Positions 1 through 21,329 of a stretch of 64,000 nt of DNA are shown here, piece after piece. This stretch comes from Trypanosoma brucei (lineage: Eukaryota). The stretch is from the NCBI GenBank assembly GCA_000002445.1, contig CM000208.1:928001-992000 (forward strand). The letters are read 5' to 3'. Below the pieces are notes generated by a model. The model ran no database searches and was not told the origin of the DNA. It saw nothing but the letters and a program-made list of their open reading frames with translations. The translations under genes and the position numbers were made by a program. How positions within the stretch are numbered: the stretch's first letter is position 1; every line of letters starts with the position of its first letter.

Positions 1-1680
1 ATGTTCCGCCGGACAAGTCGGTGCCTCGTTGAAGTGGGTGATACCTGTGTCCCCAACAACTTTGTGCACGCTACCGATCTGGCCTTCTATTTTTCCAGGT
101 TTCAACCCCGATCTCACCTCCATCCGCACGGTATCCCTGAACTTCGCGATGCAGTGGAGCTGCTCCAACCTCCCGAAGGGAAACCTTGTAGCAGATGGTC
201 GGCGCCTCGTTTGTTTTCCCCTGCTGCACTGGCAGCACCTGCTGCAGTGGCGGAGTGGAAAAAAAAACGTGAGAAGGCGATGATGTTATTGTCCCGTGGT
301 GAAGAGATCATGGAAAATGTAAGCGGTGTGAGGAGTGCCGCTGTGGCGGACGTTGTCCGGCCGCTGTACGCAACAAAATTTGAGCTCCTCAACGGTTTGG
401 AGCATCTACCGCGGTCGGAGTTCGCGACGCGGATTGATGTGCACCGATTTATTGTAAAGCATGCCGGACGACTTTTATACTTTAACGATAGTTGGGATAA
501 ATCAGATGTGAAGCATCTGGACACAACTTGTGTTATTCTAGCGCACTTTATTCGGTCTTTTTGCGCCCTTCACCAGCGACCATTTCACGTAAAGCAGGCA
601 AATGTTAGTGACTCCAAGGCAGATCGAAATCCCTCTTCCTGGACCATGGCGGTAGTTGGTGGAGAATCTGGTGACGCAATGATTAGCTTACAAACTGTGA
701 TGGATCGCTTGGACGAACTGCTGGCGCTGAGTGAGAAAATAACCGAGAGGCAAATGGGTGAGATGCCCGAGCTTCGCTGGAATAAACCAAAGTTGCTGTT
801 ACTGAAAGGGACCCTTACGATCCCCCTCACAGGTAATCTGACGCATGCTCAAGAACTCGTTAATCAAGCCGCTAAAACGGTGTATGAGTTTCACCAAAGG
901 AAGAAACCGATTGTAGACGGTCTTGTTGCTCGCAAACAGGAGCACGAGTTGGGTCTGTTCATGCTGGTTCAGGCTGAAATGGCGGCGCGAGTTTTTGATT
1001 GGACCATTAACACTGGGGAAGTAGATATGGAAGTCGTTGAGATGTTCGAAGCGGCGGCTAAGTTTTATTCCTTTCCATGCAATACACCGTTGGATGCCGA
1101 CGGCATCATGTCGGCGGAGTTGCTTGACGAACGGCGCTTTGAAGTGGATGCGTACACTTCGTGCATGCTGAGTTTTGGTAACTTCCTTCTTGGTGCGCCC
1201 AGACCCGCCGCTAAAACCCGTCGCGATGCACCGGTATTCCTTCCCAAGCAGCTATTTACTATTTCACCCATAACAACTGTGGCATCATCGTCCGATCTTA
1301 TTTACGCGGATGTGCAACGTCGTGCACCCATGACAGTGGAAGTCGCTCGTAAGCGCGCAGGCGAGGCGCTTGAACGGGGCTTAAAGTTGAATCGAGAGCT
1401 TTATCCTGACCAGAAGCAGAATCCCAAGGCTGGGTGGACGCTGTTAGCAATGGCATCGTTGTACGCAGATATGCGTGATTATTTATATGCTACTGGCCTC
1501 TTCGCCTCTGCAGAGAAGACCGTTATAGAAAATTACGGCGGTGTATCGTTGGAGCGACTTCTTGTTTCCAAATTGCGCTATGAATTTTTAGCGGGGGTTG
1601 GGTCTGAAGAGGAGGCGAAGGCATCAGCGCACGAAATCGTGCAACTCCTCAAACAAATGGACAACATGCCGCATGGATAG
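1..1680 (+). CDS. Conserved hypothetical protein, 559 aa from the first ATG. Position 1 is an ATG, so the N-terminus may or may not be complete. It is mostly helical and I recognise no domain.
   Basis: The ORF is uninterrupted and runs from position 1 to a TAG at 1678-1680. Its codon usage is GC3-rich like its neighbours. It lies on the same strand as the downstream genes. Confidence 0.55.
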   Translation: MFRRTSRCLVEVGDTCVPNNFVHATDLAFYFSRFQPRSHLHPHGIPELRDAVELLQPPEGKPCSRWSAPRLFSPAALAAPAAVAEWKKKREKAMMLLSRGEEIMENVSGVRSAAVADVVRPLYATKFELLNGLEHLPRSEFATRIDVHRFIVKHAGRLLYFNDSWDKSDVKHLDTTCVILAHFIRSFCALHQRPFHVKQANVSDSKADRNPSSWTMAVVGGESGDAMISLQTVMDRLDELLALSEKITERQMGEMPELRWNKPKLLLLKGTLTIPLTGNLTHAQELVNQAAKTVYEFHQRKKPIVDGLVARKQEHELGLFMLVQAEMAARVFDWTINTGEVDMEVVEMFEAAAKFYSFPCNTPLDADGIMSAELLDERRFEVDAYTSCMLSFGNFLLGAPRPAAKTRRDAPVFLPKQLFTISPITTVASSSDLIYADVQRRAPMTVEVARKRAGEALERGLKLNRELYPDQKQNPKAGWTLLAMASLYADMRDYLYATGLFASAEKTVIENYGGVSLERLLVSKLRYEFLAGVGSEEEAKASAHEIVQLLKQMDNMPHG

Positions 1681-2383
1681 GGCCCCTTACCTGTAATTTT
1701 GGATTATAATCTGTCGACTTAAGCGATTGTGCTTTGGAAGTGCGATAGTCGGTGGGGGGGGCAGGAGAGCAAAAGTAGCGGAGGAGGAAACTGGAAAATT
1801 CCAACTTTGACAGGTGTGGATGTTGGGGAAGTATTTGACGTGGAGCGAGAAAGGTTAGGGGGCTGTTGGACGGTTTAATTCGGCTAGTAACCTATTTTAT
1901 TGTTATTATTCGTGTAGCCAAACCTTGCTTTCGGCTGTGCAACCTTCCACATTCCCCTGAAGGGGTTGAGGTAGAATAAAGGAAGTATTGTTTCCGCGCA
2001 ATGCACTGCGCCGTCACGACTTGGCTTCAGGCGATCATTACAACTTACCGTTTCGCTTTTTTTTTTCTTCTCTGTTATCTCTTACCGCCATTATTTGAGA
2101 TGTGCCGATAGCGCTATTTATGCGTGAGAGTCGTGGGGCTGCAACGTTGCAATTTACCCTGACAAAAGGACATGCATGTGTAGAGGGAGTGGAGTTTCTA
2201 TCGTGTTTTAAAGGGGCTTGATGGAGAAACACTTAAATTTGCGGACGAATTGTGTGATCGCGAATTCTGTCACATCAGTTTCCGTCCTTCCCTCCCCCTT
2301 TTGTGCATGTTCTAGCGCTTTGCGGAACTTGTGACTTTCTGAATCAATGGGGCAACTTGTTGTGGGACCTTTCTCACCTCACC

Positions 2384-2440
2384 TCTTTTCTTTTTCTTTT
2401 CTTGTTTTTTTTCTTATTTCCCCCGCTTCTATCACGATAT
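2384..2440 (+). promoter_or_regulatory. Polypyrimidine tract with a downstream AG, the likely SL trans-splice acceptor region for the gene starting at 2546.
   Basis: A CT-rich run (ctcttttctttttcttttcttgttttttttcttatttcccccgcttct) lies about 110-160 nt upstream of the ATG at 2546. Confidence 0.5.
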
Positions 2441-2545
2441 GGATTTCCGTACCAATTTCGATTAGACAAGCGGATTCCCAGCAGGGTTGCATCGTGGGTT
2501 ACATAGCAAGGAAAGGGTTGCCTCAGAGGAACTGTTTATTCTTAC

Positions 2546-4174
2546 GTGAGGGAAATGAGCACCAACGGCGGCGTTGAATGTTCGAATGCCTACATTACAG
2601 AGGGCGTTAAGCTATCCCCAATTTCGTCGGAGAAAGCTGAGAACACTCAAAACAACGACGGTGTGACACTTCTGCAACCGTCGTGGTTCCCGAGAGAGGA
2701 GCTGAAGGAAGCAGTGAATGGAAGCACACAAGCCAATCCTTTGAAAGGACCTTCGCCGACCGACCAGCCGCCACCCCCGCAAGTTCTAAGTCCGGCGCAA
2801 CCACAGTCGAGAAATGCACCAGCGTCCCTGTCTGAGTCTGTCAGGAGGTTACATGAACGCTTTCGCAATACTTCATGGCTTGAAATGATATGCATCTTCG
2901 TTATTATTACTGTTGTTATAGTCGGGCACTTCATTGAAATTATTAGCATCAAATACTGGCATTCGAAATTTCCAAATGGTAAAACGCCGGGAACACTAGC
3001 AACGTTGGTACTTCCATCGATACTATTGGCTGCGTTCATGGTGACTGTAATGTTGCTCTTTATCTTTTTCACAACTCCGTCGCTTCGATTTGCGTTTTGC
3101 TGCCAGTCCCTCGTCATGCTCTTCCGCATTGGATGCATAGATGCGATACAGAGCGGAGTCGGTGTATACTCCGTTATTAAGACACCGAATGCGCTCGCCG
3201 CGCTGGTAAAACCCGCAGCCCCGTTATTCGCAACCCTCTTTACGAAGATGTTCCTTAAAGACAAAAGGTCATACGGTAGCCCATGGCTTCTCATTTCACT
3301 TGCGTTCGTTATCGCTGGAATCCTTGTGGCCTCAATTTTTGACCTGAAGCATGGATTCAACAAGATTGGAAAGAACTCTTGGTGGGCAAGCATCTACTTG
3401 GTTGCAGTAGCGTTGAGTTCGTTGGTGAACGCGATGCAGGCGGTTTATATGTTAAAATTTACATACGACCCAAAATTCGACGAATTGTACAAGATTCGCG
3501 CTCGAGGGGGAACTGCGGTACCTTCAATGGGCTCCCAATCTACCTTGTTGAGTGCCCAAAACGTGTTGGCCCTCGGGGTTGGTAACGGAAACCACCAACT
3601 TGCCGTCGAGATGGGCAATATTCCGGCGGCACAGGAACCTGAGGACGTCGCGCGTACTGCGCTTAAGCGTTTACGACAGGGAAGGGGAACAAGCGTGAAA
3701 ATTGTCATGCTAACCATAATGTTATTGTTCCGCTTTGCTGGAACTTTAGCATTTCTTCCACTCGATGGGGTAAAACCGTGGGGCGAGAGCAACAGCATTG
3801 GCGATGCTTGGAACAACCTCATTGCTGGTGGGAGGTGCGTCGCTACGTGTGATAACAATTTACCCCCATTTGTCATGTACACTTCAGGTGTTCTCCTCAG
3901 TTACGTTGGATCAGCATACCTCAATCAGTATAGTGTGACTATGTGTTCTATCATAAAGCAAATTGCATGGCCGTTAGCCGCCCTGATACTTGTTTTTGTC
4001 CCCAGGTGGAGTATCGATCCCGTGGTGACGCCTTGGTATTTCAGCCTCGTGTCTATTTTCATCCTTTTGTTGGCTGTCCTCTTGTATATGTTTTGGGAAT
4101 GCAGCACTGGTGATGAGAAAGATAAGAATGAACGCCAGTTGAAGGAACGAATGATGTATCACTTAGCGAAGTGA
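2546..4174 (+). CDS. Multi-pass membrane protein and putative transporter (drug/metabolite-transporter-like, CRT/NST-type topology), 542 aa.
   Basis: A hydrophilic, Pro-rich N-terminal segment of about 110 aa is followed by ~10 hydrophobic helices. A central hydrophilic loop at residues ~315-385 splits them into two halves (an internal-repeat-like layout). The family assignment is by topology only. Confidence 0.6.
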   Translation: MREMSTNGGVECSNAYITEGVKLSPISSEKAENTQNNDGVTLLQPSWFPREELKEAVNGSTQANPLKGPSPTDQPPPPQVLSPAQPQSRNAPASLSESVRRLHERFRNTSWLEMICIFVIITVVIVGHFIEIISIKYWHSKFPNGKTPGTLATLVLPSILLAAFMVTVMLLFIFFTTPSLRFAFCCQSLVMLFRIGCIDAIQSGVGVYSVIKTPNALAALVKPAAPLFATLFTKMFLKDKRSYGSPWLLISLAFVIAGILVASIFDLKHGFNKIGKNSWWASIYLVAVALSSLVNAMQAVYMLKFTYDPKFDELYKIRARGGTAVPSMGSQSTLLSAQNVLALGVGNGNHQLAVEMGNIPAAQEPEDVARTALKRLRQGRGTSVKIVMLTIMLLFRFAGTLAFLPLDGVKPWGESNSIGDAWNNLIAGGRCVATCDNNLPPFVMYTSGVLLSYVGSAYLNQYSVTMCSIIKQIAWPLAALILVFVPRWSIDPVVTPWYFSLVSIFILLLAVLLYMFWECSTGDEKDKNERQLKERMMYHLAK

Positions 4175-4492
4175 GCTCCTTTGGGTAGTCGTAGTGTTTT
4201 GGCTTCCATATTTCTTAATTTTTTCATTCCCACGACTGACCAGGTAGAAGAGAGCAGGTTGTGAAGCCTGTCTAAGTTCTATTATGAACAATTTAAGTAG
4301 CAGCTCGAGGGAATGAGGGAGGACGCGTTAAGTTTCATTGTGTGAATTGAAAAGGGCATATATTTATTTACTCAGGAACGCTGAGTTAATATACTGAGCC
4401 TTTTTCCGGAATCTCTTTTTTTTTTGTCTTTTCTTTTTTGTTTCCCATTACCTCTTTTATTGGGTATACTGTCCCTCACATAAATGTTTCCA

Positions 4493-4494
<2 letters not shown>

Positions 4495-4537
<43 letters not shown>
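4495..4537. repeat. (TA)n microsatellite of about 21 units in the intergenic/UTR region.
   Basis: Perfect TA dinucleotide run. Confidence 0.95.
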
Positions 4538-4541
<4 letters not shown>

Positions 4542-5875
4542 CATGTATTCAATAATAACATATCGCCTTTTCTGATTTCTTTTTTGTTGGTTTTTTTTAA
4601 ATACTGTGATCCTCCTTTCTTTTTTTTTTACATACTCTCTTTATTTTAGTCGTTTATCTTGCTTCTCTACCACCCCGCCACACCTCATTCCCCTCACCTT
4701 TTTTTTTCACTTTGCTATCATTGCAGTATTGGCATGATGGGAGAAGAAGCCGGAAATGGAAAAATATTTTATTGACAACATTTTTTCAGGAAAGAAAATA
4801 TATAAAAAAAATTTTTTTTTGAGGGAGGAAAGCGCGTTGCGTGAGTACGTGTGATGAAAGAGGGGAAATTGGTAATAATAACAACGCAAATAAAACACCC
4901 GCCGTGATGTGTGTGCATGTGTTTGCATGGAAAAGAGAGGAAAAAGGGAAGTCCGAGAAGGAAATTTAACAGAGGCAAAAATAAAGGGGAAGGAGAGATG
5001 GGTAAAAGGTATGTCGTGTATATTTCAACTGAATAGGATGAGATACTGCGCAGTAACCTTTTTCTTATTTTTTTTGTTTTTGTAAAACACAAATGCACAC
5101 ACACACGTGAATGAAACCAGGCGGCAGCTTGCATTTGTGACATGTAGAGTTTAAGAGGCAACGTAAGAAAAGACGGTGTAACAGGCGGAATCAGGAAAAA
5201 AAATCAAAAGAAATATCATAAATAAACAAAAATGAGATATAGTGGGAGAAGGTGTTTTGTTTCAATAATTTCCCCTCCCTTTCCTTTAAATCACCAAACT
5301 TTGACTTCTATTTCACTCCCCCCCCCATTTTTAATCATTTTGTCTTTGTTTTCTCACTTATTTTTGTCTTTTTATTTCGATTTTCATAACCTATTCTTTC
5401 CCCAATCCCTCACACACCACCACCACCACCACCTAATTACTAAATGTAAGAGGGCATAATAATAATAATAATAAGGAGGGAAGTGACGGAAGCTCTCAAA
5501 GAAAGAGGGGAAAAAAAGAAAAAAAAGGCAAAAACATACCGCTTTAGGATCCAACGCTTTCCTCCAAATAATCGTTCCTTTCTAATTTTAATTTCCTTGT
5601 TTCAAGCACCTCATGATTATATGTATGTATGTGCGAGAAACTGAAGATGATAACAAAGTTGTCATTTCTTCCATTCATACCTTAATAAAAATTAATTTAA
5701 CAATGCTAATATATTTTGAGGGCAAAACACAGGACAAAAAAACAATGCAGAAACGTTTAAAAGGGTGAGAAACGACTGTTTGTGTTTTCCCTTCTCCTTG
5801 TGGGGTGTTGAAGAAAAAAAAATGTTTCAAAGACTCCTTTCTCTTTTTTTTTAAACATATTCTTCGACCAATGGT

Positions 5876-5925
5876 CCATTTTTTTTCTTTTTCTTTTTTC
5901 CTCCCACTTCTTTGCGGTGTGGAGG
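5876..5925 (+). promoter_or_regulatory. Polypyrimidine tract, the probable trans-splicing signal for the gene at 6179.
   Basis: The sequence is ccattttttttctttttcttttttcctcccacttctttgcgg, with AG dinucleotides downstream. Confidence 0.4.
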
Positions 5926-6178
5926 TGTCTCCACATTCCCAAAAAAAAAAGTGAAGAATAGATCCTACTTGTATTTCTTCCAATTTTTCACCACGAATAT
6001 TCAGTTAACTTCGATTTCTCAAACACATGCGCAGCAATCACTACACACCTCTTAATTTGCGAACTCTCTGAGTCTTTTATTGACTAAAGAAGGAAAGAAA
6101 GGAAAAAAAAAGAAAAAAACAAAATAAAACAAAAGCGGAGAAAAACTTGGGGGACACCGCCACCCCTCCGAAATTTTC

Positions 6179-7675
6179 ATGGCGGTTGGTGCAGGCGTAC
6201 GGCAACGAGCCGCAGCTGCGGCTCGCCACTGGCGTCGTGTTTCAGTTAAAACGCTGCGGAGTCGACTCTCCACCCCGCACGTGTGTGACATAAAACTTCC
6301 GCTCATATCAAATGAGGCCCCAGTGGGTTCGGGACCGGCGCTGAACATTCGCCTGGGGACCAACAACGAAGAGATCATGCGATGGTGCCAACTCGAGTAC
6401 TTTGGTTTTTTAAAGCCTGCAGATGCCGCCACCGACTCGCATACGAGTAACACAAGTGATGTATGCATCCACTCCGGGCCTCCAGGGCAGTTGGGATACC
6501 CATACGCGCTGACAGCGGAAGTTGATAATTTCACTGATGCGGTGCGACGCGATGAGGAGTCCGCTGAGTGGCAAAATATTAGTGGAGCGGAAAGTGCGCA
6601 TCCTTCGCGGTGGTTGACTCAACTGCTTCTGGACGGTTTCATCTCCCGCCGCGTGGCTGCACACGTTGGTTTATCAGCTGACCATTTGATGGACACAGTG
6701 AGGATGGCACGGCAACTAAAGGTGCCACTCGCACCGAGTGAGGTGTCACCGCATTATTTTTCTAATGATCTCTTGTCAACTTGGGGGGTGTTTGGAGAAC
6801 TGAAATCGGGCGATACCGATTTTGTTGGTGACTACGTGCATCGGGTGCTGCAGTTGGCTCACGCCAGTTCTGTCATCTCTGCTTGTCACTCCGTTTGGTT
6901 GAAAGGTACGGCTATATGTAATGGTAATGGTGGCGCCGTAATCATTTTAGGCCCGAGAGCAAGTGGGAAAACAACACTTGCGCTTCATTGTTTGGCAACG
7001 TCAACACCCAAAATACGTCTCATAGGGTTGGAACATTTTCACATTGCGCCTGAAAGCGTCATTCAGGGAGCCTCCATTAGCAGTGGTGGTGCGCGCGCGC
7101 TTCTCATGTCCATTCCATCACCGGCTAGTGTCGGTATCGGCGCTCTTATTGGATCACTTAAACCGAACCCCAGCTTAGTTGAGGCCGCCCACACTTTCAC
7201 GTGTAGTGCTGCAACGATCAACAGTCTCATGCGTAACAGCGAGGAAACCATATGGTTTATGGGGCGACGGCATGTAGTAAATATAAACGAAGCATTTGGA
7301 CCACATCGTTGGTGCCCCACATGGTTTGGTACTGTAAAGGGAATTGTGCTGTTGAATTGGGATGTTCATGAGCTTTCACGTCCAACCTCATCGGCAGGCA
7401 CCCAAATCATCCATTGGACAGAGAAGGAAGACTGCTTCAAGGCACTGAACGCCTTCGCAACAAATGCAGGAGCCGCCCTGTTCAAGGGGCACTATCTTAT
7501 ACGCTCCATGTACAACGAGTTAAATGCACACAGACAATTGGAAGAAATGCTCTTTTCTGGTGGTGAAGTTGATGGAAAGGTGGGAGTCCCACCAATATTT
7601 GAGGTTCGAGGCGCAGTACACTTCGATGCCGTGGTTAAGTTGATATGCGATCGCCTCCTTAACGAAACGAACTAA
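6179..7675 (+). CDS. Hypothetical P-loop NTPase/kinase-like protein, 498 aa.
   Basis: There is a Walker A motif, AVIILGPRASGKTTLALHCL. The segment ...KIRLIGLEHFHIAPES that follows it resembles the HprK / PEPCK-like kinase P-loop region (GxxGxGKS/T ... RLVADD). The rest of the protein matches no family I recognise. Confidence 0.6.
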   Translation: MAVGAGVRQRAAAAARHWRRVSVKTLRSRLSTPHVCDIKLPLISNEAPVGSGPALNIRLGTNNEEIMRWCQLEYFGFLKPADAATDSHTSNTSDVCIHSGPPGQLGYPYALTAEVDNFTDAVRRDEESAEWQNISGAESAHPSRWLTQLLLDGFISRRVAAHVGLSADHLMDTVRMARQLKVPLAPSEVSPHYFSNDLLSTWGVFGELKSGDTDFVGDYVHRVLQLAHASSVISACHSVWLKGTAICNGNGGAVIILGPRASGKTTLALHCLATSTPKIRLIGLEHFHIAPESVIQGASISSGGARALLMSIPSPASVGIGALIGSLKPNPSLVEAAHTFTCSAATINSLMRNSEETIWFMGRRHVVNINEAFGPHRWCPTWFGTVKGIVLLNWDVHELSRPTSSAGTQIIHWTEKEDCFKALNAFATNAGAALFKGHYLIRSMYNELNAHRQLEEMLFSGGEVDGKVGVPPIFEVRGAVHFDAVVKLICDRLLNETN

Positions 7676-8094
7676 CGAGTATATTAATAAAAACTATTAT
7701 CGTACAATACCATAATGGAACTATGTCAAAACCTGAGTGATTGGTGGGCGAGAAACCTTTGAAACACAATGCAATGTGTATCCGTATCTATTCATGAGAG
7801 AACAATTGTTCATGCTCAACAGATTAGGTGAGAAAAGGTACGATAAACTTGGAGTGCGAGTCGCTGTGACGCCAAGCAATGCGTCATTGCGAATTGCTAC
7901 GCAACAAGCTGCAACGTTTTGCGCGCACGGAGCCATATGTTTCCCCGCTATTAATTACGTAGACGTTCCTTTTCGTGGTACTTTCGTTTGGTTGAACTAT
8001 CCTCGCACATGCTGATGATTTGTTGATATATTTATTTTTATACGTGTGCGAGTGCGTGTATGAGTGTCATTACTATACCACATGTGGATAGCTT

Positions 8095-8160
8095 CCTGTA
8101 TCTCTCTTTCATCTCCCACCTTTCCTTTTTTTCCTTATTCACCCTTTAAAAAAAAAAAAT
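8095..8160 (+). promoter_or_regulatory. Polypyrimidine tract upstream of the gene at 8295.
   Basis: The sequence tctctctttcatctcccacctttcctttttttccttattcaccctt is followed by an A-run and AG sites. Confidence 0.45.
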
Positions 8161-8294
8161 GGTTTCCTAAATACACACACACACACATATATATACATAC
8201 ATACCAAGCCCGAGGCAGATCCAATAGGATTTTGGGAACTTCTATTGGGCTTCACAAAGAAAAGTACATTGTCACACATACAAAACTGCGTTAA

Positions 8295-9221
8295 ATGATG
8301 TTTCACACATTCACTGCGCTGTTTATCACGGCGACATGTGTGTCGTGCTCAAGAGCTTCCGCTGCCGCAGCAGCCGTCACAGATGCAGAGCCTGCAGCTA
8401 CCAGCGGTTCCACATCCCGTTGTACGTTACTGCAACAACTACTAGGCGTAGGACGCAGCGTAAATTTTACGAAGAGATATGTAAAGGAGCTCGTGGATCA
8501 ATCGGTGCGGGCTGAACAGGAATGCACTTATTACCTCTGGACGGCGAGAGGTAACATCACATTTTCCTCCAAAGTGCTCTACGACGGTCGAAGAAGCCGC
8601 GGGAGTAGCAACGTATACGTTAAACTCGCAGAGAGAGCTTTTGAAGAAGCTAAGTTGGATCATGAAATTCTGAGAGAAACTGTGTATAGCGTGGAACGGA
8701 ATTTGTTGGTGATTAGGTCGCAAAGCGCCGAGATGAACCGCAACGGATATGAAGCCGTTAAGGAAAGCAAAAAAGCCGTAGCCAAATTGGTGCGCTCCGC
8801 GAATCGTTATATGGGGAGATATCATGGAGGCGATGACGACATTTCGGAGACATGTAAATTAGCCCCAGCATCTGGCGTCACATTCGCCTCGTTAGAGCAT
8901 GCCATGCGGAACATTACTGACGAAATGGTCGATTCAGATGCTCTGGAAGGGGCGAGAAAAGTGTTCCGCTCGCTCGTGGAAGTGGAAGAGGCTAGAAAGA
9001 AAGCAATGCGAGTGGCTCAAGAGATAAAAGAGGGAAAACAGTTGGCACAGGGAGCGGAGGCGAGAGTTGCGGGACATGCCAACGCTGTCTTTAGTGTGAT
9101 GCGCACCAGTAAACAGAGCATGACAATTAACCATTCCAGGGGCGGAACGAACGCATCTCAATTCCTTTGGAATTGGATTAAATTCCTTTTGTTGTCGCTG
9201 ATTAGTGCCGCGGCCCCATAA
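8295..9221 (+). CDS. Putative secreted or GPI-anchored, N-glycosylated helical surface protein, 308 aa.
   Basis: The N-terminus looks like a signal peptide (MMFHTFTALFITATCVSCSRASA). The C-terminus is a hydrophobic tail with no cytoplasmic extension (ASQFLWNWIKFLLLSLISAAAP), preceded by a small-residue candidate omega site, as GPI-anchor signals are. There are ≥5 NxS/T sequons. The middle is predicted helical or coiled-coil. Confidence 0.55.
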   Translation: MMFHTFTALFITATCVSCSRASAAAAAVTDAEPAATSGSTSRCTLLQQLLGVGRSVNFTKRYVKELVDQSVRAEQECTYYLWTARGNITFSSKVLYDGRRSRGSSNVYVKLAERAFEEAKLDHEILRETVYSVERNLLVIRSQSAEMNRNGYEAVKESKKAVAKLVRSANRYMGRYHGGDDDISETCKLAPASGVTFASLEHAMRNITDEMVDSDALEGARKVFRSLVEVEEARKKAMRVAQEIKEGKQLAQGAEARVAGHANAVFSVMRTSKQSMTINHSRGGTNASQFLWNWIKFLLLSLISAAAP

Positions 9222-11843
9222 GGTATTTTCCGTCGCAGCAGTGTATATAGTCCTTTGTTTTGATTATCGGACCTCACGTAGAGAAAAGTAATTTATTAGT
9301 TTCAAGTGTCTATAACTTAACTGTTATGTTTTACTTGTTTTTTCCCCCCCCTTCCCACCGAATGACGTCTTTTCATTTCCTTCTGTTTTTTTTAGTAAGA
9401 AAAACTTTTCTTTTGTTTTGCGGCTCTCAAAGAATATACCGTACAGGCTATAAAGTATCTCGTGCAGCTACCTTGTCAGTTGCAGAGCTTATATTCTGTT
9501 AATTCATCCTGATTCTACCTGAACTTCTAATGTTATAGTGTAATATATGTTATAGCAGCCGCACGTGCCGAAGAAAGTGGAAAGTACGTCCAACTGCGGT
9601 CATGTGCGGGAAGCGCCGTCTTTTCTTTCTTCATTTCCCTTTTGTTTCCTTTTTCAGAACATATTGGTACCGCAACATAGGTATTGTCCGATGCGTGAGT
9701 GGATACGCGGGGGTACGCGATTTGGTCGGAAAATATTTTTTTCCTGCGGCATCGTGTGCTTTTCGATAATTGAGCTAATATTTTGAGTCCCTACCTGTTA
9801 TCAAAATCTTTGTCTTTCCTCCATCTTGATTTTTACAAGGTTGGTTACAGCATTAATGGTTTTGTTTTGACACATTGCCTACGTTAAGGTTTAAGGAATT
9901 TGGACCGTTAGCGCCGTCAGGCTTTGCACACCCAAGCGCGTACACGCTCAACGCATTTTGATTCAGTCAAAGCGGGCTTCTGAGGCTTGTGGACTACCAA
10001 ACAACAACATTATTGATAATAATAATAATAATACAAAACAATGATAGCGATGGCGATGATAAAAGTGGCATTTCAGGTAGCAGCCACTTAACAACACACG
10101 TCGGAAGGCTCTGTCATTCGAAACGGTTGCGGGACTCTGAGATTTATTGACGAGATTTTCGGTTACGCACTATCCATGAGAAGCGGATGTTGTTTTGTTT
10201 CGTTTTGTTAAATTTCTTTTTTTTTTTTTTGCATCCCTCCTCGGGAAAGCGCGTGAGGAAACTTGTTGAAGGTGGTAAGTTTTTGGTGAAGGTCGGAGGC
10301 GCTGCGCCTCTTAAACGAGATTAGCTCCGTAAGTATTCGGAAGGCATTCGCGTCCCCAAACGCAACTGTGTTGAACTTTCAAATAACAAATTGAATTAGA
10401 GCGAGGAATGCTGCATATGCGGCACAGTGAGCGTAGCGTACCCGATCACAGTGCCGCAACCGCCAAATCTGTCTGGAAGGTTGCGCGTTGGTGCGCTGGA
10501 AAATCTTTTTTTTTTTAGCCGTGTTGTTCGTTTTAGGGAACTGTGCCAACAGCAGCAGCAAAGGGGGAAAAAAGGTTCATTATGTTTGCAGATCGATAAG
10601 TGCAGCGCCGCCGCGCTCATTGGCTAGAAAACTCCATTGTGCTAAACGAAATGGCTCACTCCGTATTTTTTCAATTAATCCACCATTCACTGTGAACTGA
10701 GTTCAGGTTTTTTGTTTTCCGTTAGCAAGGCCACTTCCACTTTGCTACTCATGTTTCTTCCGTCTCAGAAACAAAAAAAAGTATGCAGTAAGAAGAGGAA
10801 AAATCCATAAGGAAAAGAGGTCTTGTTTGTTTATTTGTTTTGGACGCATGCTTCGACATCATCACTTGAAAACCACCCGCAGTGGAGGTGTAAGATAAAT
10901 AAGACAGCAGATTACAACAAAAACTGCCCCAAACCTTCCCCATCCGTATTCGTTACGCTACCCGCATTATTATCGTTATTGCGGTGACTTTCTCATTTGA
11001 GCCACCGTGGGTGGCCTTCCCTCCTAAGATGCGGTACAGTTATGTGGCTTTGAGTGAAAAACTGCGAGTAGCGGCGCCACTGACATGCACACACACACAC
11101 ACACACACACGAGTCCCCACGCCAGTACGCGCGCGAATATGTTCATATTACCAAGTGCTCCCTGTGGTGGGCATCACCTCAGCGGTTTTATTTATTTATT
11201 TTTCTTTCAAAAAACAAAAAAAAACAAGAACAAAGGCAATGAGCCCCTGCTACACTTCTCATAGGTACTCATCAAACATAATCACGGAGTTCCTCGCACA
11301 TTCCGCCTGCCCGGCCGTCGGAGGTTCACTCACTCGACCTCAAGTCCAAACGCAACAGGACCAAACCGCAAGGGATTCTCCACTGAGCGGAAGACGTAAA
11401 TCCTCCTGCACGCCGCCAACGTAATTTTTCTTTTTTTTCCCCTCATTGAATTTTATAGCTTTCGCATTCACCCACCCCATGCCCGTTTAACATGCCATCC
11501 GGTTCATCCCTGTGCGGTTTCCATCATTGCCTTTGAAAATTAAATTCCCGCGGTCTCTTCCTTCCCCTTCTTGAAGTAAACGTGGGAAAGATCCACCAAC
11601 AAGTAAATCTCAGTGGGAGGAGACTATACAAAATCTCGCCTCTTCAGCATCCTTCTACGGAGGCGCCTGGTCGACGCTTAGTGGATTCATTTAATCCATG
11701 TGCATCAGACAAAAAACGAACGATTTGAGTTCCCTCGCTATTTTACCGGTTGCACATGCAAACGGTTCATACAAATCCGCACCACATCGACAATACCAAA
11801 TGTAATGAAGAGGTCTGAAACATCACACGCACCTCTCGCTCCC
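9222..11843. other. Convergent strand-switch region, the presumed RNA pol II termination zone between two polycistronic units.
   Basis: Every credible ORF to the left is on the + strand and every one to the right is on the - strand, so transcription converges here. The region holds only short, low-complexity ORFs and a (CA)n tract. Confidence 0.65.
11088..11110. repeat. (CA)n microsatellite.
   Basis: A cacacacacacacacacacacac run inside the strand-switch region. It accounts for the THTHTH stretch in a spurious ORF. Confidence 0.9.
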
Positions 11844-12824
11844 TCACACCGATGTGGAGAGTTCCAAATGTTTCACCCCGAGGGCGTGAATGTTGAATTC
11901 CCCACGATCGGAGAAGCGTCTTTGCACGCCCATGACACATGTGGAGTGAACCACAACCACGCAAAACATAGCCTCCACGCCACCCCCACAACTTTTAACC
12001 CTACCGGAAGGGATAACAACAAAACGGTTGGCGGGAAATGTAGTTTGCAATGCAGCCTGCAAGTAAGCCTTCTTGCTGTCTACATTTGTGTTGTTCTTCA
12101 CGCTAAACGAAAACCCAACTTTGTGGAGTTGCTGATCCGATGCCGAGGATGCGGGGAAATGTTCAATCCGAAGCTTCTCTAACCCGAGACGCATCTCGGG
12201 AAGGATGGGGCAGCATGTTAACTCGCAAGGTATCAGACGAAAACAGTGACGCAGCGCGGGGCGTTGGTTCTCCTCAACATCCTCAAAAATACGTTCAACA
12301 ACGGTACGTACCAGTGGGTTGTGCACAACTGAGTGCGCTACGAGGGCCTCAGCTCCAGAAGTAACATTGGGGCCGTCTTCGTTATGTGGCTCAATCACAA
12401 CCGGATTCGCCCTGCAATGATTATCACCGTTTCCCTCCGCCTCCGCACATGAAACAATCCCAGCCCGCTGTAGAGGAAAAGGTATGCTCACCATCAGGTG
12501 ACCTTTGCAGCACGTCTCGAGTGGGGCCAACCAGCGGCAATTTCTCTGCTCTGATTTGTTTCCTGTGAAACTTCCTGTTCGCGATCGTTTCCGAGGGGGC
12601 CGTTCCCCATCGTCGTCACTATTTCTCTCCTTATCTTCGATGGCGGGCCCTGGTATGTAAGCGGCGAGCTCCGCCGTGAGAAGACTCGAGGTGGAGGGGC
12701 TTGGTTTCTCCAAAACATTTGTTTCAGTTGTTGAACCCACTTGTTTTTTCTCACCGTTGCTACCATCATGTTCCCTTTCCAAATCCGCTATGAGTGGCTG
12801 CAAATAGAGCTGCAGTTCCCGCAA
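11844..12824 (-). CDS. Hypothetical protein, 326 aa, the terminal gene of the minus-strand transcription unit.
   Basis: A 981-nt ORF with an acidic/Ser-rich N-terminal half and no recognisable domain. A + strand ORF (11700-12182) overlaps it in antisense and is presumably spurious. Confidence 0.4.
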   Translation of the reverse strand: MRELQLYLQPLIADLEREHDGSNGEKKQVGSTTETNVLEKPSPSTSSLLTAELAAYIPGPAIEDKERNSDDDGERPPRKRSRTGSFTGNKSEQRNCRWLAPLETCCKGHLMVSIPFPLQRAGIVSCAEAEGNGDNHCRANPVVIEPHNEDGPNVTSGAEALVAHSVVHNPLVRTVVERIFEDVEENQRPALRHCFRLIPCELTCCPILPEMRLGLEKLRIEHFPASSASDQQLHKVGFSFSVKNNTNVDSKKAYLQAALQTTFPANRFVVIPSGRVKSCGGGVEAMFCVVVVHSTCVMGVQRRFSDRGEFNIHALGVKHLELSTSV

Positions 12825-13810
12825 CGCCTTCGACTCCTGCCGGGGGGTTCACAGTCCATAAAAGTCCTGAAATGCGACCGTGTGGTACCAGAATGCGGCC
12901 AAGACGGCCCTTGTGGTGACGTTGTTTCCCCGCGTCTTGCCGATACGTCCGCGGTGCCGGCATCTCACCTTATTTGACCAAGCGTTTGCTTTGGAATCAA
13001 AAAGAATTTTGAAAATTTTGTGAAATAGCCGCAAAAAAAAAAAATAAATAAATCATATTTACAGCGAAGAGGCGAAGCGGGTGATGAAGAGAGGAATTAC
13101 TAATACAAATGAGTGATAAGGCAAAAATATACGGGACACCGCCATTTTTGTTAGACACATTCGTGATCAACACTTCTAATTTGTGATTTTCAAGGACGGA
13201 CAATCCCCTGCCTATGCACACATATATCAGCACTTTCCCCCGCGCTACTTCATCCAATAGCGTGCCGTTCGTATACGCGCCACATATTCCTCACCTAATG
13301 TGTGGGTTCCCGTGCCAAAGCAAACACCACAACCTGCGCCTATCGTCATATTCTTCGTTATTTTCATATCGAGAACATAAACCCTAACCTCAAAAAAAAA
13401 AAATTTGCGTTACATATTGGATATTGGTTATCCTCACTTTCCCGCGAGATGCAAGCGGAATGCTACAACTTTAAGTGAATTTTGGCAGCAGGTTTTTGTG
13501 CCGAAAAGGAGAGCTTGTGGTACACACCCGCTGTTTAATATTTAACGAAACAATAACAGTAACAACTAAATGTCGACAACACCTTCAGAGCATGTGGCAG
13601 GAGGTTGATTGTTACTAAGGCGTGTTAACGGTTAACCGTTGTGGGTTTGCATACAATTATATGCCCATACGTCCTCACTTGATCCTATAGTGATGCTCAT
13701 GTAAAACTTCCTTCATGGTAGGATAAACTTTTAGATATGATGAAGATACGCAAACTACAGCCAGTAAATATATCAACTTGCCACCTCCGGAGGTGGTTGG
13801 TAATTTTCTT

Positions 13811-13878
13811 CCCCCCCCCCCCGCTAGCGCCATGAGGGAAGGTGTATTACCACATTTGCAAACACACACACACACACA
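13811..13878. repeat. A C12 homopolymer followed by an (AC)n microsatellite and an A-run.
   Basis: The run cccccccccccc lies at 13811-13822 and acacacacacacacaca at 13862-13878. Confidence 0.85.
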
Positions 13879-14390
13879 GAAAAAAAAAAAGACAACACCA
13901 AATAAATGCAATCCGTTACGGGTGAGTAAAGGTACATAAATATCCTTTTGGAAAGTGGTGGGCACAGGAAGCACCCATAATTTTCCTCACGGTCCGTACG
14001 GTAAGGCGACAAACAAACAGCTCACCGTAATCCAACAGAGTAAAAATACTTTTTTACAACATCACCCCAACATCCGGCACCACCACAAAAACACAAACGG
14101 CCGGAGCCCTTTTCACATCATGTACACACAAAGTCACCAAGGAACTACGGTACGAAACAAAGTGAAATGTGACGGAAGGAAATATGCTCAAAATATGTGA
14201 AAAGAACCAATGATGCGAAGTCACCACACCAACTCAACCACTAATATCATTTTTTCCTTCTCCATACACGCACCATTGAGTCCTTTTATTCACCTTTTTT
14301 TTCTATTTTTTCTTCCGGCCACTAAAACTCTAGCGTAACAGTCGGTTCCCTTCTCTATCTATTCAACGCCTCAGTCTCTCTTTAATACAA

Positions 14391-14428
14391 TATATATATA
14401 TATATATATATACCTATATATATATATA
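14391..14428. repeat. Interrupted (TA)n microsatellite.
   Basis: The sequence is tatatatatatatatatatatacctatatatatatata. Confidence 0.9.
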
Positions 14429-14828
14429 CCTCAACCGCAACACGTGCGCTTGGAGAGAGTCATAATCTCTTTCTTTTGTTCGTTCTCTTTACCATTTTTT
14501 GTCTTTGTTTTCTTTTGCTCCTTCCTTCTTCCATACTCCCCCCTTTTTTTTTCTCTCTATGAACTCGGTGGGCCTTCCTCCTCTTCCTCTTCCATTCATG
14601 TTGCTGTTTTTTTTTTTTTCGTTCCCATCTTTCTCTCTGTTTCATCACGGCGTTTTTCATCTAATTCACTTTGGTACGTGAACGTGGGCCTTTACATATA
14701 TGCGCGTGAGAAGTCAAGGGAGTTGAATGGGAACTGGAGGTTGCCACAGAAAGGATTATTTAAAAAGAAAAAAAAAGTAAATATAAGAATAAATACACGG
14801 GGGAAAAAAATAAACAAGTTGAAGATAA

Positions 14829-15692
14829 TCACACAAATACAGAGGCGATACGCCACGCCACTGGGGCAAAGAGAAGCACAAATCCCGCACCTACAGCCAT
14901 TTGTTCAACACGTGTGGCCTCTGCAACAAGAGCGAGAAAAGCAACAAGTGCTGCTGCTGCTGTTTGCTTCAAGCCAACAGGCATGAAAGATGTAGTGAAA
15001 AGCGCGAAGGCCGCTACTAGCACCACAACAGCGTGGCCCAAAGCAGTAAGTTGCGCAATAACTGAATACATGATTTCTTTCTTGTCCTTACCACTGGTGA
15101 ATATACTGACCTTGAAGGTAGGGACAGTAAGAAATGGCCGAAGAACGGCGTAAAGCGTCTTTTCCTCATTGGAGAAGCTAAAAAGCGGAAGAGCAAAGGC
15201 ACCAAACACTAAAACAGCAAGCGTGGCGATTGACGCCCACAACTGCTGTGAGCAGCGAATACGAACCTTTTCGAGTAGAGATTGGCGGTGTTGACCGTAC
15301 CAAACCTCGAAATCGGGTGAGCGGAATAAGTCATCAAGTGCCTTTGCTGTAATGGGTTTACCACCTGTGGCATAACGTTTAGCTGATCCTAATTCTGGAG
15401 TGTGTCCACTGGGCCTTTCCCGACCCCTGCTTGGTTTTGGTTCTGCTTGCGCCCGTAATTTTACTGAAGTGAGTATGGGGAACTGCATCACAACACCTCG
15501 CAGCAGTGCCCAAAGGAAGAGGTGAAGGGGTTCACTCTGCTGGTGGTATTTCTCCAAGAGCGGCTTAAGCAAAAACGCCCACAACGGTGCCACCACAAGT
15601 GCAATGATGAAAGCGTGTTTCATTGCCACGGGGTTCCATAAGGATTGCGGAACGCGCTGTGTAAAATATCGAAAGCCCTCCATTACTTCCAA
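14829..15692 (-). CDS. Hypothetical polytopic membrane protein, 287 aa with about 6 predicted transmembrane helices.
   Basis: Hydrophobic helices alternate with short loops. There is a basic, Pro/Ser-rich loop (PKPSRGRERPSGHTPELGSAKRYATGGKP). I see no family-specific motif. Confidence 0.5.
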   Translation of the reverse strand: MEVMEGFRYFTQRVPQSLWNPVAMKHAFIIALVVAPLWAFLLKPLLEKYHQQSEPLHLFLWALLRGVVMQFPILTSVKLRAQAEPKPSRGRERPSGHTPELGSAKRYATGGKPITAKALDDLFRSPDFEVWYGQHRQSLLEKVRIRCSQQLWASIATLAVLVFGAFALPLFSFSNEEKTLYAVLRPFLTVPTFKVSIFTSGKDKKEIMYSVIAQLTALGHAVVVLVAAFALFTTSFMPVGLKQTAAAALVAFLALVAEATRVEQMAVGAGFVLLFAPVAWRIASVFV

Positions 15693-17454: not shown

Positions 17455-20400
17455 TCACAGCGTTCCCGACTCGCCGTCAACCGTATGAACGAGCTCTTTG
17501 TCATAACCCATGCTCAGTAACTCATTCTTCACGTCGCGCTGCATCACGGGCGGTCCACACACAACAATCAGCGGCTCACTCGATGGCGGTTGCAGCACCT
17601 TCTGCAGGGATTTCTTGTTGACAAACCCCACTCCACCTGTCCACCCTTCGGGTGGGTTGTTAAGAACGAAGTTGCAGACGAACTTGTCGGGGAACTCTTC
17701 CGCAAACCGCTGCAAAATTGAGCGATACGTCAATGTGTCGTACTCTTCTGCGGCGTATATAAGACGGATGCTTTCCAACGTGTCCACGTAAGGCTTCTTG
17801 AGTGCCGCACGAATAACCTGCAACATGGGCGCGACACCAGTCCCTGCCGCGACAAGAGCAAACCGCGTAATAGGCCGGTTACGAAACAGCAGACACTTCT
17901 TTACTGGGTCTTGATCAATACGAAGACCTCCACATGCTTTGATTTCGACGGAGTCGCCCGGTCGCAAGGCGCAGATCCATTCCTTCAATGTGCCCTTGTC
18001 GGCACGAACCAGAAGGGAGATAGTGCCAAGGTCCTCTGGTAGTGTAATTGGACTGAAGTAACCAACAAGTTGTTGGCCGTCCCACTCGCCACGGATGGCC
18101 ACAAATTCGCCCAGATTGAGACCTGTGCGCTGCAGCGCCCCAGGTAGGTTAAAACGAAGAACACGAGAGCCGGTCCCGAACTGTTCGCCGGAGCGGGACT
18201 CACGTACAACAACGGAAGTCCAACTCGTCTTGGAGAGGGCTATCTCACGTTTTTGAAGTATTGTTGCGGCACGGTCACCCGCAATTTTCCCGAATACCAC
18301 ACATTCCAAGAGCGAATTACCACCAAGGCGGTTACCACCGTGCACACCACCCGTCACTTCACCGGCACCAAACAAGCATCGAATCGGTCTATGGTTTTCC
18401 AGAATATTTAAACCTTTGTACTCCTGAAGAACTTCAGCAGCCGGTGAAATGAGGCAGCCACCCATTGTGTAATGAATGGAAGGCGTGACAAAAGCAACAT
18501 TGTACGGCCCCCTTGTACCCACCACACAAGGGAATACTACCTTCCCCGTCACAGGGCACGCAACTTTGGCCTTGCTGCAAGTTTCATACTTTTCAAGCGT
18601 ATCCCGTAATTCACCTTCGTCACAGCCAATCAGTTTGGCCAACTCTTCCACAGTCTCAGCACGCTGGAACAAACCAAGCTTCTTTCCGTAGAACCCCAGT
18701 GCACCGCCACCGAAGAGGTTTGTTGCATCTTCGTTGAGCACGCAGTACGCAAAGTAACATCCACCGGATCCAGGGTATTCATTACCCTGCGTATTAATTG
18801 CCTTGGATACAACAGAGCGGAGGTCAAGTTCATTCACGAAGCGCTTTCCTTGCTTGTTGAGTAATATCCCACCCGAACCTCGGAGTGCCTCCGGGCCGAG
18901 AATCTTCGTTGTGTTCGCGGGATCCTTTGGATCGATAAGCCCTGTGGGGTGTAGCTGAACCTTATCCATATCCACAAGCTTTGCACCAACCGATGTTGCG
19001 AGTTTAACCCCGTCACCGGTCGCCCAGGGGCCATTTGTCGTTGGAAAACTGGCCAGGTGAGGCGCATACTTGCAGAGCAGTGAATTTTCTTCACGGTCAT
19101 TGGAGAAACCACCAGTTGCAAGAACGACGGCATCCGCAAGCAATTTTGATGGCTGGCCATCCACATCGGAGAGGTCCCTGTATCTTACACCCGTAACACG
19201 CACTTCGGAGGCGCCATCAGGTGTTGTATCGGTTTCGTGCAATAACTCGGTCACGGACACATGTGTCATAATCGTTACTCGCTCAGAGAGGTTGTTACGG
19301 ATGTGATCCTCGAGGGTTCTCATGATCGTATGACCAATTGGTAGGGGTGTCCCGTCCGTTTTGTCCGGGGCACGGTGGGTTCGCTTGAAACTGTGGCCAC
19401 CAAGTTGCGAGAGGACACTGAGTGGCACACCAAGAGAAGTAAGCCAACCAATTGCGTCCCCACTCTTAACTGAGAGCACTTTGACGAGGGCAGGATCGGT
19501 AGTACCGCCAACGCCAGAGAGAAAAGTGTCACGCTCAAAATACTTTCCACCGTCGAGAATATCTGACTTTGCCTGCGTACGCGTCCCCCACCCATTAATA
19601 CCTGATGTAGCCTTTGCGCTGTTCCCCCCGATTCTTCCTTCCTTTTCCATGAGTATGACTTGTGCACCACAACTTGCGGCTTCGATGGCCGCTGAAAGGC
19701 CCGCTAGACCTCCACCCACAATAACAATTCTGGAGGGCAAACTCCCGGCAATCCGTATTTCACGTAGCTCCCGTGTTTCTTGCGCTATCTCGTGCATATG
19801 TGCTAACCGCTCGCCCTGACGGGTATAGGCGAAGTAATTCGTCACACGACTTCGAACGTAACGCCAGCCCTCTAATAAGTAGCGAATCCTCACAGCATCA
19901 CGCTTCACAAGGCACACTGTTGCCAGAGCATCAGCGTACATTGCGCTATAACATTTCACAGACACTTGAGCGAGTGCCCCTTCCTCAGGAGATAGTAGCC
20001 CCCTTCGCTGCCAGTCAAAAATGCTCCCCGCCACTCCATGCTTTGGATGATACAAAACGTTTTCGTAGTCACCACTGGTGCAAAGGGCTTCATCATCAAG
20101 CTCCACCACATGAAGCAGGGATGGAGAATCATCGTCCTTCTCTTCCTGCTCCTCCTCCCCCATTTTTAACATTTTCCCTTTGGCGCGCCGAATCACCTCC
20201 TCCACAGATGGCGGTCGTTTGATAGCAACTGCCCATAGGTTTCCTTTGATGTTCCTACCCGACGCTCGAATATCCCCGCCCCACTCAAAGAGCACGTTTG
20301 GCATACCGGCCGCACGAAGATGATCCACTACATAATCAACTGTGTAGCCTTTGTTCACACCACCAAGATCAAGCCTCGCTTCAGAGTGCTTGCGAGCTAT

Positions 20401-21171: not shown

Positions 21172-21329
21172 TTTTTTCCCTTGAAATCGGATCTTTAGCC
21201 TTTCCCTTCCTTTAAAGTTTATTTTGACTCTTTCCTAGTTCCTTATGAAGCCCCTCGCTCAGCTGCTGGTTTGTAATGACACTTAATTTGATAATCCCCA
21301 CCGAATACTGGATTCTATCATGTTGAGTC

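What the first reader, a model, noticed from the sequence alone, without database searches (positions are those of the whole stretch)
9222..11843. Convergent strand-switch region where two polycistronic units terminate
Coding polarity flips here. The four genes at 1-9221 are on the + strand, and ≥17 genes from 11844 to the end are on the - strand. Both units therefore transcribe into this 2.6 kb gene-free gap. In T. brucei, convergent strand-switch regions are pol II termination sites marked by base J, H3.V and H4.V. They often carry pol III genes or generate siRNA-like small RNAs. I found no tRNA A/B boxes here, so this one would be a 'bare' termination site. Its (CA)n tract and C/T-rich blocks may be the relevant chromatin signals.
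Basis: partly seen in the sequence, partly recalled or inferred. Interest (0 to 1): 0.55.

Follow-up and report, generated by a model that had tools for sequence, protein, structure and literature searches.

The report
Known trypanosome convergent transcription termination zone
This 2.6 kb gene-free gap is where two head-on gene arrays of Trypanosoma brucei chromosome 10 end; published experiments already show that transcription stops here in a base-J-dependent way and that the zone yields small interfering RNAs, so it is real but ordinary.

Summary
There are four + strand genes up to 9221, then a 2,622-nt gap, then 17 − strand genes from 11844. The gap has no tRNA, no Rfam family and no conserved ORF.

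The window is T. brucei TREU927 chromosome 10, and the gap lies between Tb927.10.3620 and Tb927.10.3630. Schulz et al. 2016 define exactly this interval as a convergent strand-switch region. They list antisense RNA over 3610, 3620, 3630 and 3640 as more than 4-fold up without base J and H3.V. Antisense over 3630 rises about 35-fold in the J-null alone. Tschudi et al. 2012 report DCL2-dependent small RNAs from both strands of the matching unit, CTU37.

One sub-claim is not supported. The (CA)n tract varies in copy number between strains. The C/T blocks are ordinary polypyrimidine processing signals, no denser than in same-strand intergenic regions.

New details:
- The junction is a synteny breakpoint. 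The left array ends here in other trypanosomes too, but the right array ancestrally continued past the THUMP-like gene.
- The 'T. brucei-specific' gene 3620 has a T. congolense orthologue.
- Tb927.10.3630 carries a reference-only 1-nt frameshift.

The parts
8295..9221 (+). Tb927.10.3620, the last gene of the + strand polycistron. It encodes a 308-aa putative surface protein with signal-like N-terminal and hydrophobic C-terminal segments.
   Evidence: ORF. Annotated 'T. brucei spp.-specific protein'. Used in a recombinant surface-protein panel. The S6 distance of 928 to the cSSR edge equals its length. A syntenic 309-aa orthologue exists in T. congolense, E=8e-29.
9222..11843 (.). Convergent strand-switch region (cSSR), the Pol II termination zone. 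It holds the 3' UTRs of 3620 and 3630 and the zone where the two transcription directions meet.
   Evidence: for layout and absence of RNA genes. The boundaries are identical to those used by Schulz et al.. Read-through occurs in J/H3.V mutants. siRNAs come from CTU37.
9338..10516 (+). Run of + strand polypyrimidine tracts (9338-9356, 9368-9393, 9619-9655, 10213-10242, 10504-10516). They are candidate polyadenylation/trans-splicing signals for RNA made from the + strand array.
   Evidence: Their function is inferred from the general trypanosome mRNA-processing mechanism and was not tested.
10560..11236 (-). Run of − strand polypyrimidine tracts (purine tracts on the + strand at 10560-10575, 10790-10803, 10809-10820, 11209-11236). 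They are candidate processing signals for the − strand array. The strand of the tracts switches near 10516-10560.
   Evidence: Inferred, not tested.
11088..11110 (.). (CA)11.5 microsatellite.
   Evidence: It is two units longer in L011 and four units longer in L012, and falls in an assembly N-gap in L001.
11844..12963 (-). Tb927.10.3630, the last gene of the − strand polycistron. It is a conserved THUMP-domain-like protein. The reference annotates it as the 216-aa ORF 11844-12494 because an extra base at 12842-12847 breaks the frame.
   Evidence: The S6 distance of 652 equals the 651-nt truncated ORF.

Best explanation
The gap is the convergent strand-switch region between Tb927.10.3620 and Tb927.10.3630 on T. 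brucei chromosome 10. It is a chromatin-defined RNA polymerase II termination zone with no pol III gene.

Shown (published data):
- Without base J, + strand transcription runs on across the gap into 3630.
- Without J and H3.V, antisense RNA appears over two genes on each side.
- In wild-type procyclic cells the zone yields DCL2-dependent small RNAs from both strands in equal amounts.

Inferred:
- The terminal mRNAs are cut and polyadenylated at polypyrimidine-guided sites. These lie on the + strand in the left half of the gap and on the − strand in the middle and right.
- Polymerases that continue are stopped by J/H3.V/H4.V chromatin through the JBP3-PNUTS-Wdr82-PP1 complex.
- The residual overlap of the two transcripts forms dsRNA, which DCL2 dices.
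- No specific DNA motif is needed.

Evolution: the junction joins an old polycistron end on the left to a polycistron that was truncated after the THUMP-like gene, at least in the T. brucei lineage.
For: Layout and absence of RNA genes.

Identity of the locus.

Read-through: Schulz S6 Table and S2 Data, with the paper's cSSR definition.

siRNAs: Tschudi Additional file 3, CTU37. Reynolds S2 Table gives chr10 937,355-943,346 at 6.3 RPM in WT and 13.3 in the H3.V KO. Positional assignment rests on L011, which places 3620 at 937,890-938,816, and on S6 distances that place the gap at about 933-946 kb.

Mechanism of the class: PJW/PP1 complex and H4.V as a major termination mark.

Synteny.
Against: - No ChIP or J-IP track could be read for this locus, so occupancy by J, H3.V and H4.V is inferred from the genetic dependence and from class-level knowledge.
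- The mutant data are from bloodstream-form cells and polyA+ RNA, not nascent RNA.
- In Reynolds et al. 2016, small-RNA levels here in bloodstream forms are low and do not change significantly in the H3.V KO. Neither flank gene appears in their mRNA tables.
- The S6 'mutant value' column repeats the same numbers for J-null and double-mutant rows. Only S2 Data gives genotype-specific values, and only for 3630.
- The CTU37 assignment is by coordinates, not by gene name.
Confidence: 0.9

Rival explanations
1. The gap is not bare. It hides an unannotated gene, such as a trans-spliced long non-coding RNA, a small ORF or a divergent pol III/snoRNA gene, and that gene is the real feature.
For: Several + strand polypyrimidine tracts followed by AG (for example 9619-9657) could support processing of downstream RNA. 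PolyA+ reads are reported inside cSSRs in general.
Against: There is no tRNA and no Rfam family even at E up to 10 beyond noise. No gap ORF has Pfam or cross-species support. The gap has no similarity to orthologous regions of other species or to the rest of the window. No pol III gene is found in the equivalent regions of other species.
Confidence: 0.1
2. Termination is encoded in the sequence. The (CA)n tract and C/T-rich blocks act as the signals that recruit the chromatin marks.
For: The elements exist. No other evidence was found.
Against: (CA)n copy number differs between strains. Polypyrimidine tract content in the gap (164 + 70 nt in 2,622) is within the range of same-strand intergenic regions, for example 249 + 251 in 2,004 and 211 + 186 in 2,798. 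There is no sequence conservation with T. congolense beyond the coding sequence or with any other species.
Confidence: 0.05
3. Besides termination, the region serves as an ORC-bound site or replication origin, as some polycistron boundaries in T. brucei do. This would be an additional role, not an exclusive one.
For: Only class-level knowledge that ORC1/CDC6 sites cluster at polycistron boundaries (my own knowledge, not retrieved here). Kim 2021 links termination-site marks to replication.
Against: No locus-specific data were found. There is no composition anomaly: GC is 0.43-0.49. No repeats were found.
Confidence: 0.12
4. The strand switch is an assembly misjoin or a centromere-type domain.
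For: None.
Against: The same junction is present in four assemblies at 97-99% identity: TREU927 (the window), T. equiperdum OVI L001, GCA_003543875.1 L011 and T. b. gambiense DAL972 L012. No tandem or AT-rich repeat arrays and no retroelement relics were detected.
Confidence: 0.01

Closest known systems
T. brucei convergent strand-switch regions / Pol II transcription termination sites marked by base J, H3.V and H4.V (Siegel 2009 class; Schulz 2016 PMC4721952; Reynolds 2016 PMC4721609; Kim 2021 PMC8551723)
   Same: Convergent polycistrons in a kinetoplastid. The interval is the very one used in Schulz et al.'s cSSR set. Antisense read-through appears when J, or J plus H3.V, is removed. No sequence motif is involved.
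   Different: Nothing essential. At this site, read-through into 3630 depends on J alone and H3.V loss alone has no effect. Reynolds et al. emphasise H3.V effects on siRNAs at other cSSRs, and this one does not change significantly.
siRNA-producing convergent transcription units (Tschudi et al. 2012, PMC3447711), specifically CTU37
   Same: Both strands give about equal small-RNA counts. The counts are independent of DCL1 (166% of WT) and dependent on DCL2 (0.96% of WT).
   Different: Its output is above the middle of the range: 681 normalised reads, against 4 to 4,888 across all CTUs. In bloodstream forms the level is low.
Synteny breakpoints at strand-switch regions carrying lineage-restricted genes (TriTryp comparative genomics; example in PMC1805754)
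   Same: The flanking gene orthologues are not neighbours in T. vivax, T. theileri, T. cruzi or Leishmania. A lineage-restricted gene (3620) sits at the boundary. T. vivax has retroelement-like ORFs at its equivalent break.
   Different: No retroelement, RNA gene or gene-family expansion is detectable in the T. brucei gap itself.
cSSRs that contain tRNA, snRNA or other pol III genes
   Same: Convergent termination context.
   Different: This one has none, so it belongs to the 'bare' subset.

Membership tests
T. brucei convergent strand-switch region / Pol II termination site | Two polycistrons of opposite polarity converge, with no gene of the 'wrong' strand on either side | tested here: met
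   Off-strand ORFs are antisense shadows or unconserved.
T. brucei convergent strand-switch region / Pol II termination site | The sequence is from a kinetoplastid with polycistronic Pol II transcription | tested here: met
   100% protein identity to TREU927. About 99% DNA identity to T. equiperdum OVI.
T. brucei convergent strand-switch region / Pol II termination site | Read-through or antisense RNA into the opposing polycistron rises when termination marks are removed | tested here: met
   Published data retrieved here. S6 Table lists antisense of 3610, 3620, 3630 and 3640. S2 Data gives 3630 antisense of -3.78 in WT and +1.37 in the J-null.
T. brucei convergent strand-switch region / Pol II termination site | Physical enrichment of base J, H3.V and H4.V over the region | not testable with these tools
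   No ChIP-seq or J-IP-seq tracks are available. Occupancy is inferred from the genetic dependence on J.
siRNA-producing convergent transcription unit | Small RNAs from both strands that depend on DCL2 | tested here: met
   CTU37 gives 2,457 and 2,195 reads, with dcl2-/- at 0.96% of WT. CTU37 is assigned to this locus by coordinates.
'Bare' cSSR (no pol III gene) | Absence of tRNA, snRNA, 5S or other structured RNA genes | tested here: met
   ARAGORN, Rfam at gathering threshold and Rfam at E up to 10.
Synteny breakpoint at a strand-switch region | Orthologues of the two flanking genes are not adjacent in outgroup species | tested here: met
   In T. vivax they lie about 245 kb apart on one contig in the same orientation. 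They are on different contigs in T. theileri. Downstream of THUMP there are Tel2-like and about 590-aa genes in T. theileri, T. cruzi and Leishmania.
Synteny breakpoint at a strand-switch region | Association with retroelements, RNA genes or lineage-specific genes | tested here: inconclusive
   T. vivax has endonuclease/RT-like and RNase H-like ORFs after THUMP, both below Pfam cut-offs. 3620 is lineage-restricted. No retroelement relic was detected in the T. brucei gap, but no ingi/RIME/DIRE reference sequence was available for a direct search.
Centromeric strand-switch domain | Long AT-rich or tandem repeat arrays, or degenerate retroelements | tested here: not met
   Only short microsatellites are present. 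GC is 0.43-0.49. No dispersed repeats were found.

The most novel reading that the evidence does not exclude
The right-hand half of this termination zone is evolutionarily young. In Leishmania, T. cruzi and T. theileri the polycistron continues past the THUMP-like gene into Tel2-like and further genes. In T. brucei it was cut there and fused head-on to an old polycistron end. If so, J-dependent termination and siRNA production were installed de novo on non-conserved sequence. That would make this locus a natural experiment showing that termination marks follow convergent transcription itself rather than any DNA motif.
Probability: 0.35. Interest if true: 0.4.

Novelty: already known. Interest (0 to 1): 0.15.

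Why it matters
The finding correctly recognises a standard element of trypanosome genome organisation from raw sequence. The locus is already part of published genome-wide datasets, so it opens no new question. Its modest value has two parts.

First, it is a clean, pol III-free convergent site where termination depends strongly on base J alone. That makes it a convenient model locus.

Second, it sits at a rearrangement junction. This could help test whether termination chromatin is specified by sequence or by transcription geometry.

The side observations (an orthologue of a supposedly species-specific surface protein, and a reference frameshift in a conserved gene) are small annotation corrections.

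Tried and rejected
- Hidden RNA genes: ARAGORN and Rfam (gathering and permissive modes) on the gap and on orthologous loci found nothing in the gap.
- Hidden protein genes: all ORFs of at least 40 aa in the gap, and the free-standing off-strand ORFs elsewhere, have no Pfam hit and no cross-species conservation.
- Relics of ancestral neighbours in the gap (Tel2-like, DUF2838, GARP, helicases, retroelement ORFs): tblastn found none.
- Dispersed or inverted repeats: only low-complexity matches.
- Conservation of the gap outside the T. brucei group: none. Similarity to T. congolense stops at the THUMP stop codon.
- Reynolds 2016 and Kim 2021 supplements were searched for the gene IDs in Tb927 style, and Reynolds also in Tb427 style, with no entries.
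- TREU927 contig look-up by exact protein failed, so the chromosomal position was derived indirectly.
- Homology between 3620 and the T. vivax GARP array: only a 19-residue match, rejected as evidence.
- AlphaFold model of 3620 without an alignment: mean pLDDT 45.8, too poor for a fold search, so none was run.
- Dating the junction with T. congolense: the two short contigs do not overlap, so this is undetermined.

Full report
**1. Observation**

The ORF map shows four + strand genes: 1-1680, 2555-4174, 6179-7675 and 8295-9221. After them, seventeen ORFs of at least 150 aa all lie on the − strand, from 11844 to 63968. The interval 9222-11843 is 2,622 nt.

The interval contains no tRNA (ARAGORN). 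It has no Rfam family at gathering threshold, and only chance-level matches (E>1) in permissive mode. Its longest ORF (10984/11029-11424) runs through the CA repeat, has no Pfam hit and is not conserved.

Off-strand ORFs elsewhere in the window fall into two groups. Some are antisense shadows of conserved genes. The others are unconserved and have no Pfam hit. The finding's own refutation criterion, a wrong-strand gene on either side, is therefore not met.

A (CA)11.5 tract lies at 11088-11110, and C/T-rich blocks are present.

The gap is not exceptional in size. It is the second longest of 20 intergenic intervals, and 21154-23951 is longer.

**2. Identity of the locus**

The 308-aa protein at 8295-9221 occurs exactly in T. 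equiperdum OVI (GCA_001457755.2), and that contig is about 99% identical to the window. The 498-aa protein at 6179-7675 is 100% identical to a T. brucei brucei TREU927 protein on a 4,054,025-bp contig. The window is therefore TREU927 chromosome 10.

Gene identifiers follow from several anchors:
- The ORF at 17455-21153 is a fumarate reductase (ApbE + FAD_binding_2 + NAD_binding_1), and 23952-25163 is a class I/II aminotransferase.
- Tb927.10.3640 is described as a 31-kDa protein with six transmembrane domains (PMC4263762). This fits the 284-aa ORF at 14829-15683.
- Tb927.10.3620 is treated as a putative surface protein in a 2026 preprint. Its mRNA is CSD1-bound and regulated during RBP6-driven development (PMC10270622).

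The decisive check comes from Schulz et al. 2016 S6 Table. It gives the distance from each gene start to the 'cSSR edge' as 3044 (3610), 928 (3620), 652 (3630) and 3841 (3640). These equal the distances from window positions 6179, 8295, 12494 and 15683 to 9222 and 11843. That paper defines a cSSR as running from 1 bp past the last + strand coding region to 1 bp before the first − strand gene.

**3. What the region does: published, locus-specific evidence**

*Termination.* S6 Table lists antisense transcripts of Tb927.10.3610, 3620, 3630 and 3640 as significantly more than 4-fold increased in the J-null/H3.V-null double mutant. Antisense of 3610 is also listed in the J-null alone.

S2 Data gives genotype-specific values for 3630:

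| Genotype | Antisense log2 RPKM |
|---|---|
| Wild type | -3.78 |
| J-null | +1.37 |
| H3.V-null | -3.43 |
| Double mutant | +1.19 |

Sense RNA stays at about 5.0 in all four genotypes. Transcription from the + strand array thus normally stops inside the gap. It runs on about 35-fold more into the opposing array when base J is missing. H3.V alone is dispensable at this site.

One caution applies. The 'mutant value' column of S6 repeats identical numbers for the J-null and double-mutant rows. I use S6 only for the fact of listing.

*Small RNAs.* Tschudi et al. 2012 Additional file 3 lists Tb927_10_v5_CTU37 at 933,900-947,100. It has 2,457 top-strand and 2,195 bottom-strand small RNAs in wild type, 166% of wild type in dcl1-/- and 0.96% in dcl2-/-.

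Reynolds et al. 2016 S2 Table lists chr10 937,355-943,346 at 6.3 RPM (WT) and 13.3 RPM (H3.V KO). The change is not significant.

I assign these entries to this locus by position:
- In another T. brucei-group chromosome 10 assembly, 3620 lies at 937,890-938,816 (L011).
- Combining the S6 distances for Tb927.10.1020 and 3610 with the CTU35 coordinates puts the gap at about 933-946 kb, with a central estimate of 937.9-940.6 kb.

The flank genes are absent from the Reynolds mRNA tables and from the Kim 2021 supplements.

**4. Mechanism**

The genetic dependence on J and the DCL2-dependent, two-strand small RNAs are shown. The remaining steps are inferred:

- The mRNAs of 3620 and 3630 end at polypyrimidine-guided polyadenylation sites. 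Tracts on the + strand cluster at 9338-10516. Tracts on the − strand cluster at 10560-11236. The switch falls near 10516-10560.
- Polymerases that continue are halted by J/H3.V/H4.V chromatin. For the class, this acts through the JBP3-PNUTS-Wdr82-PP1 complex (PMC7055916), with H4.V as a major mark (PMC8551723).
- Residual overlap of the two transcripts gives dsRNA, which DCL2 dices.

**5. The proposed sequence signals**

The (CA)n tract differs in length between strains. It is two units longer in L011 and four units longer in L012, and it falls in an N-gap in the T. equiperdum assembly.

Polypyrimidine tract content in the gap is 164 + 70 nt in 2,622 nt. This is within the range seen in same-strand intergenic regions.

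The gap is about 98% identical within the T. brucei group, like its flanks. It has no detectable similarity to T. congolense or to more distant species. Nothing singles these elements out as chromatin signals.

**6. Evolutionary context (new here, but of a known kind)**

*Left array.* The order Exo_endo_phos, ~316, ~550, ~524, ~495 aa is conserved. What follows the 3610 orthologue differs by species:
- T. vivax has a convergent switch onto a 175-aa ORF and a GARP array.
- T. cruzi has one further + gene and then convergent helicase genes.
- T. theileri has no further + gene within 10 kb.
- T. congolense has a 309-aa orthologue of 3620 and then at least 1.9 kb without a gene.

This end of the left array is therefore old.

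*Right array.* The order is aminotransferase, fumarate reductase, ~305 aa, [DUF2838], THUMP-like. Past the THUMP-like gene it continues on the same strand into a Tel2-like ~950-aa gene and a ~590-aa gene in T. theileri, T. cruzi and Leishmania enriettii. In T. vivax it continues into ORFs with weak endonuclease/reverse-transcriptase and RNase H matches, which are retroelement-like.

In T. vivax the two flanks lie about 245 kb apart in the same orientation.

The T. brucei junction is therefore a synteny breakpoint. Breakpoints at strand-switch regions that carry lineage-restricted genes are a known pattern (PMC1805754). No relic of the ancestral neighbours remains in the gap. Whether T. congolense shares the junction could not be decided, because the two contigs do not overlap.

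**7. Verdict**

The feature is an already characterised member of a well-known class, and this very locus appears in published datasets. Interest is low.

The most novel reading still open is that the right half of the terminator is evolutionarily young and was installed on non-conserved sequence. That would argue that termination chromatin is specified by transcription geometry rather than by sequence.

Noticed in passing
window 8295-9221 (+); L013 1710-2639 (+): Tb927.10.3620 is annotated 'T. brucei spp.-specific protein', but it has a syntenic 309-aa orthologue in T. congolense IL3000, directly after the 3610 orthologue. Identity is 30% over 244 aa (pairwise BLASTP E=8e-29), with matching signal-like N-terminal and hydrophobic C-terminal segments. 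The indexed protein search missed it.
   Followed up: partly
window 12842-12847 (GGGGGG on +, C-run on −), within gene 11844-12963 (−): Tb927.10.3630 (THUMP-domain-like, conserved from Leishmania to T. brucei) carries one extra base in this run. The extra base is found only in the window; T. equiperdum, GCA_003543875.1 and T. b. gambiense all have five. The frameshift cuts off the conserved N-terminal 40 residues and explains the truncated 216-aa reference annotation. It is either a reference sequencing error or a strain-specific frameshift.
   Followed up: yes
L003 11766-16055 (+) (T. vivax contig SOPI01000535.1): Immediately downstream of the T. vivax THUMP orthologue lie two ORFs. One has a weak Exo_endo_phos_2 match (endonuclease-reverse transcriptase, E=4e-5). 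The other has a weak RNase H match (E=2e-4). Both are below Pfam cut-offs. Together they look like a non-LTR retroelement at the point where synteny with T. theileri, T. cruzi and Leishmania ends.
   Followed up: partly
window 12964-14828; L006 7730-9448, L008 7702-9363, L009 7622-9418: A DUF2838 gene of about 550-600 aa sits between the ~305-aa gene and the THUMP gene in T. theileri, T. cruzi and Leishmania. It is absent from this position in T. brucei and T. vivax, with no tblastn trace. Whether it moved elsewhere in the genome or was lost was not checked.
   Followed up: partly
L008 12285-15476 (−), snoRNA at 13846-13917 (−) (T. cruzi contig JABDHM010000049.1): In T. cruzi, an opposite-strand segment is inserted between the THUMP gene and the Tel2-like gene. 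It carries an aminotransferase fragment, an H/ACA snoRNA (Rfam TB10Cs1H1, 86 bits) and a GAPDH gene.
   Followed up: no
L002 13068-20433 (−) (T. vivax): The convergent partner of the left array in T. vivax is a tandem array of at least four identical-length 197-aa GARP-family genes (PF16731, 40 bits) plus a 175-aa ORF. This is a different surface-protein family at the position where T. brucei and T. congolense have 3620 on the other strand.
   Followed up: partly
window 4175-6178: This same-strand intergenic region is unusually AT-rich (GC 0.35) and about 2 kb long. It has equal amounts of polypyrimidine tracts on both strands (249 and 251 nt), unlike most other intergenic regions in the window.
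   Followed up: no
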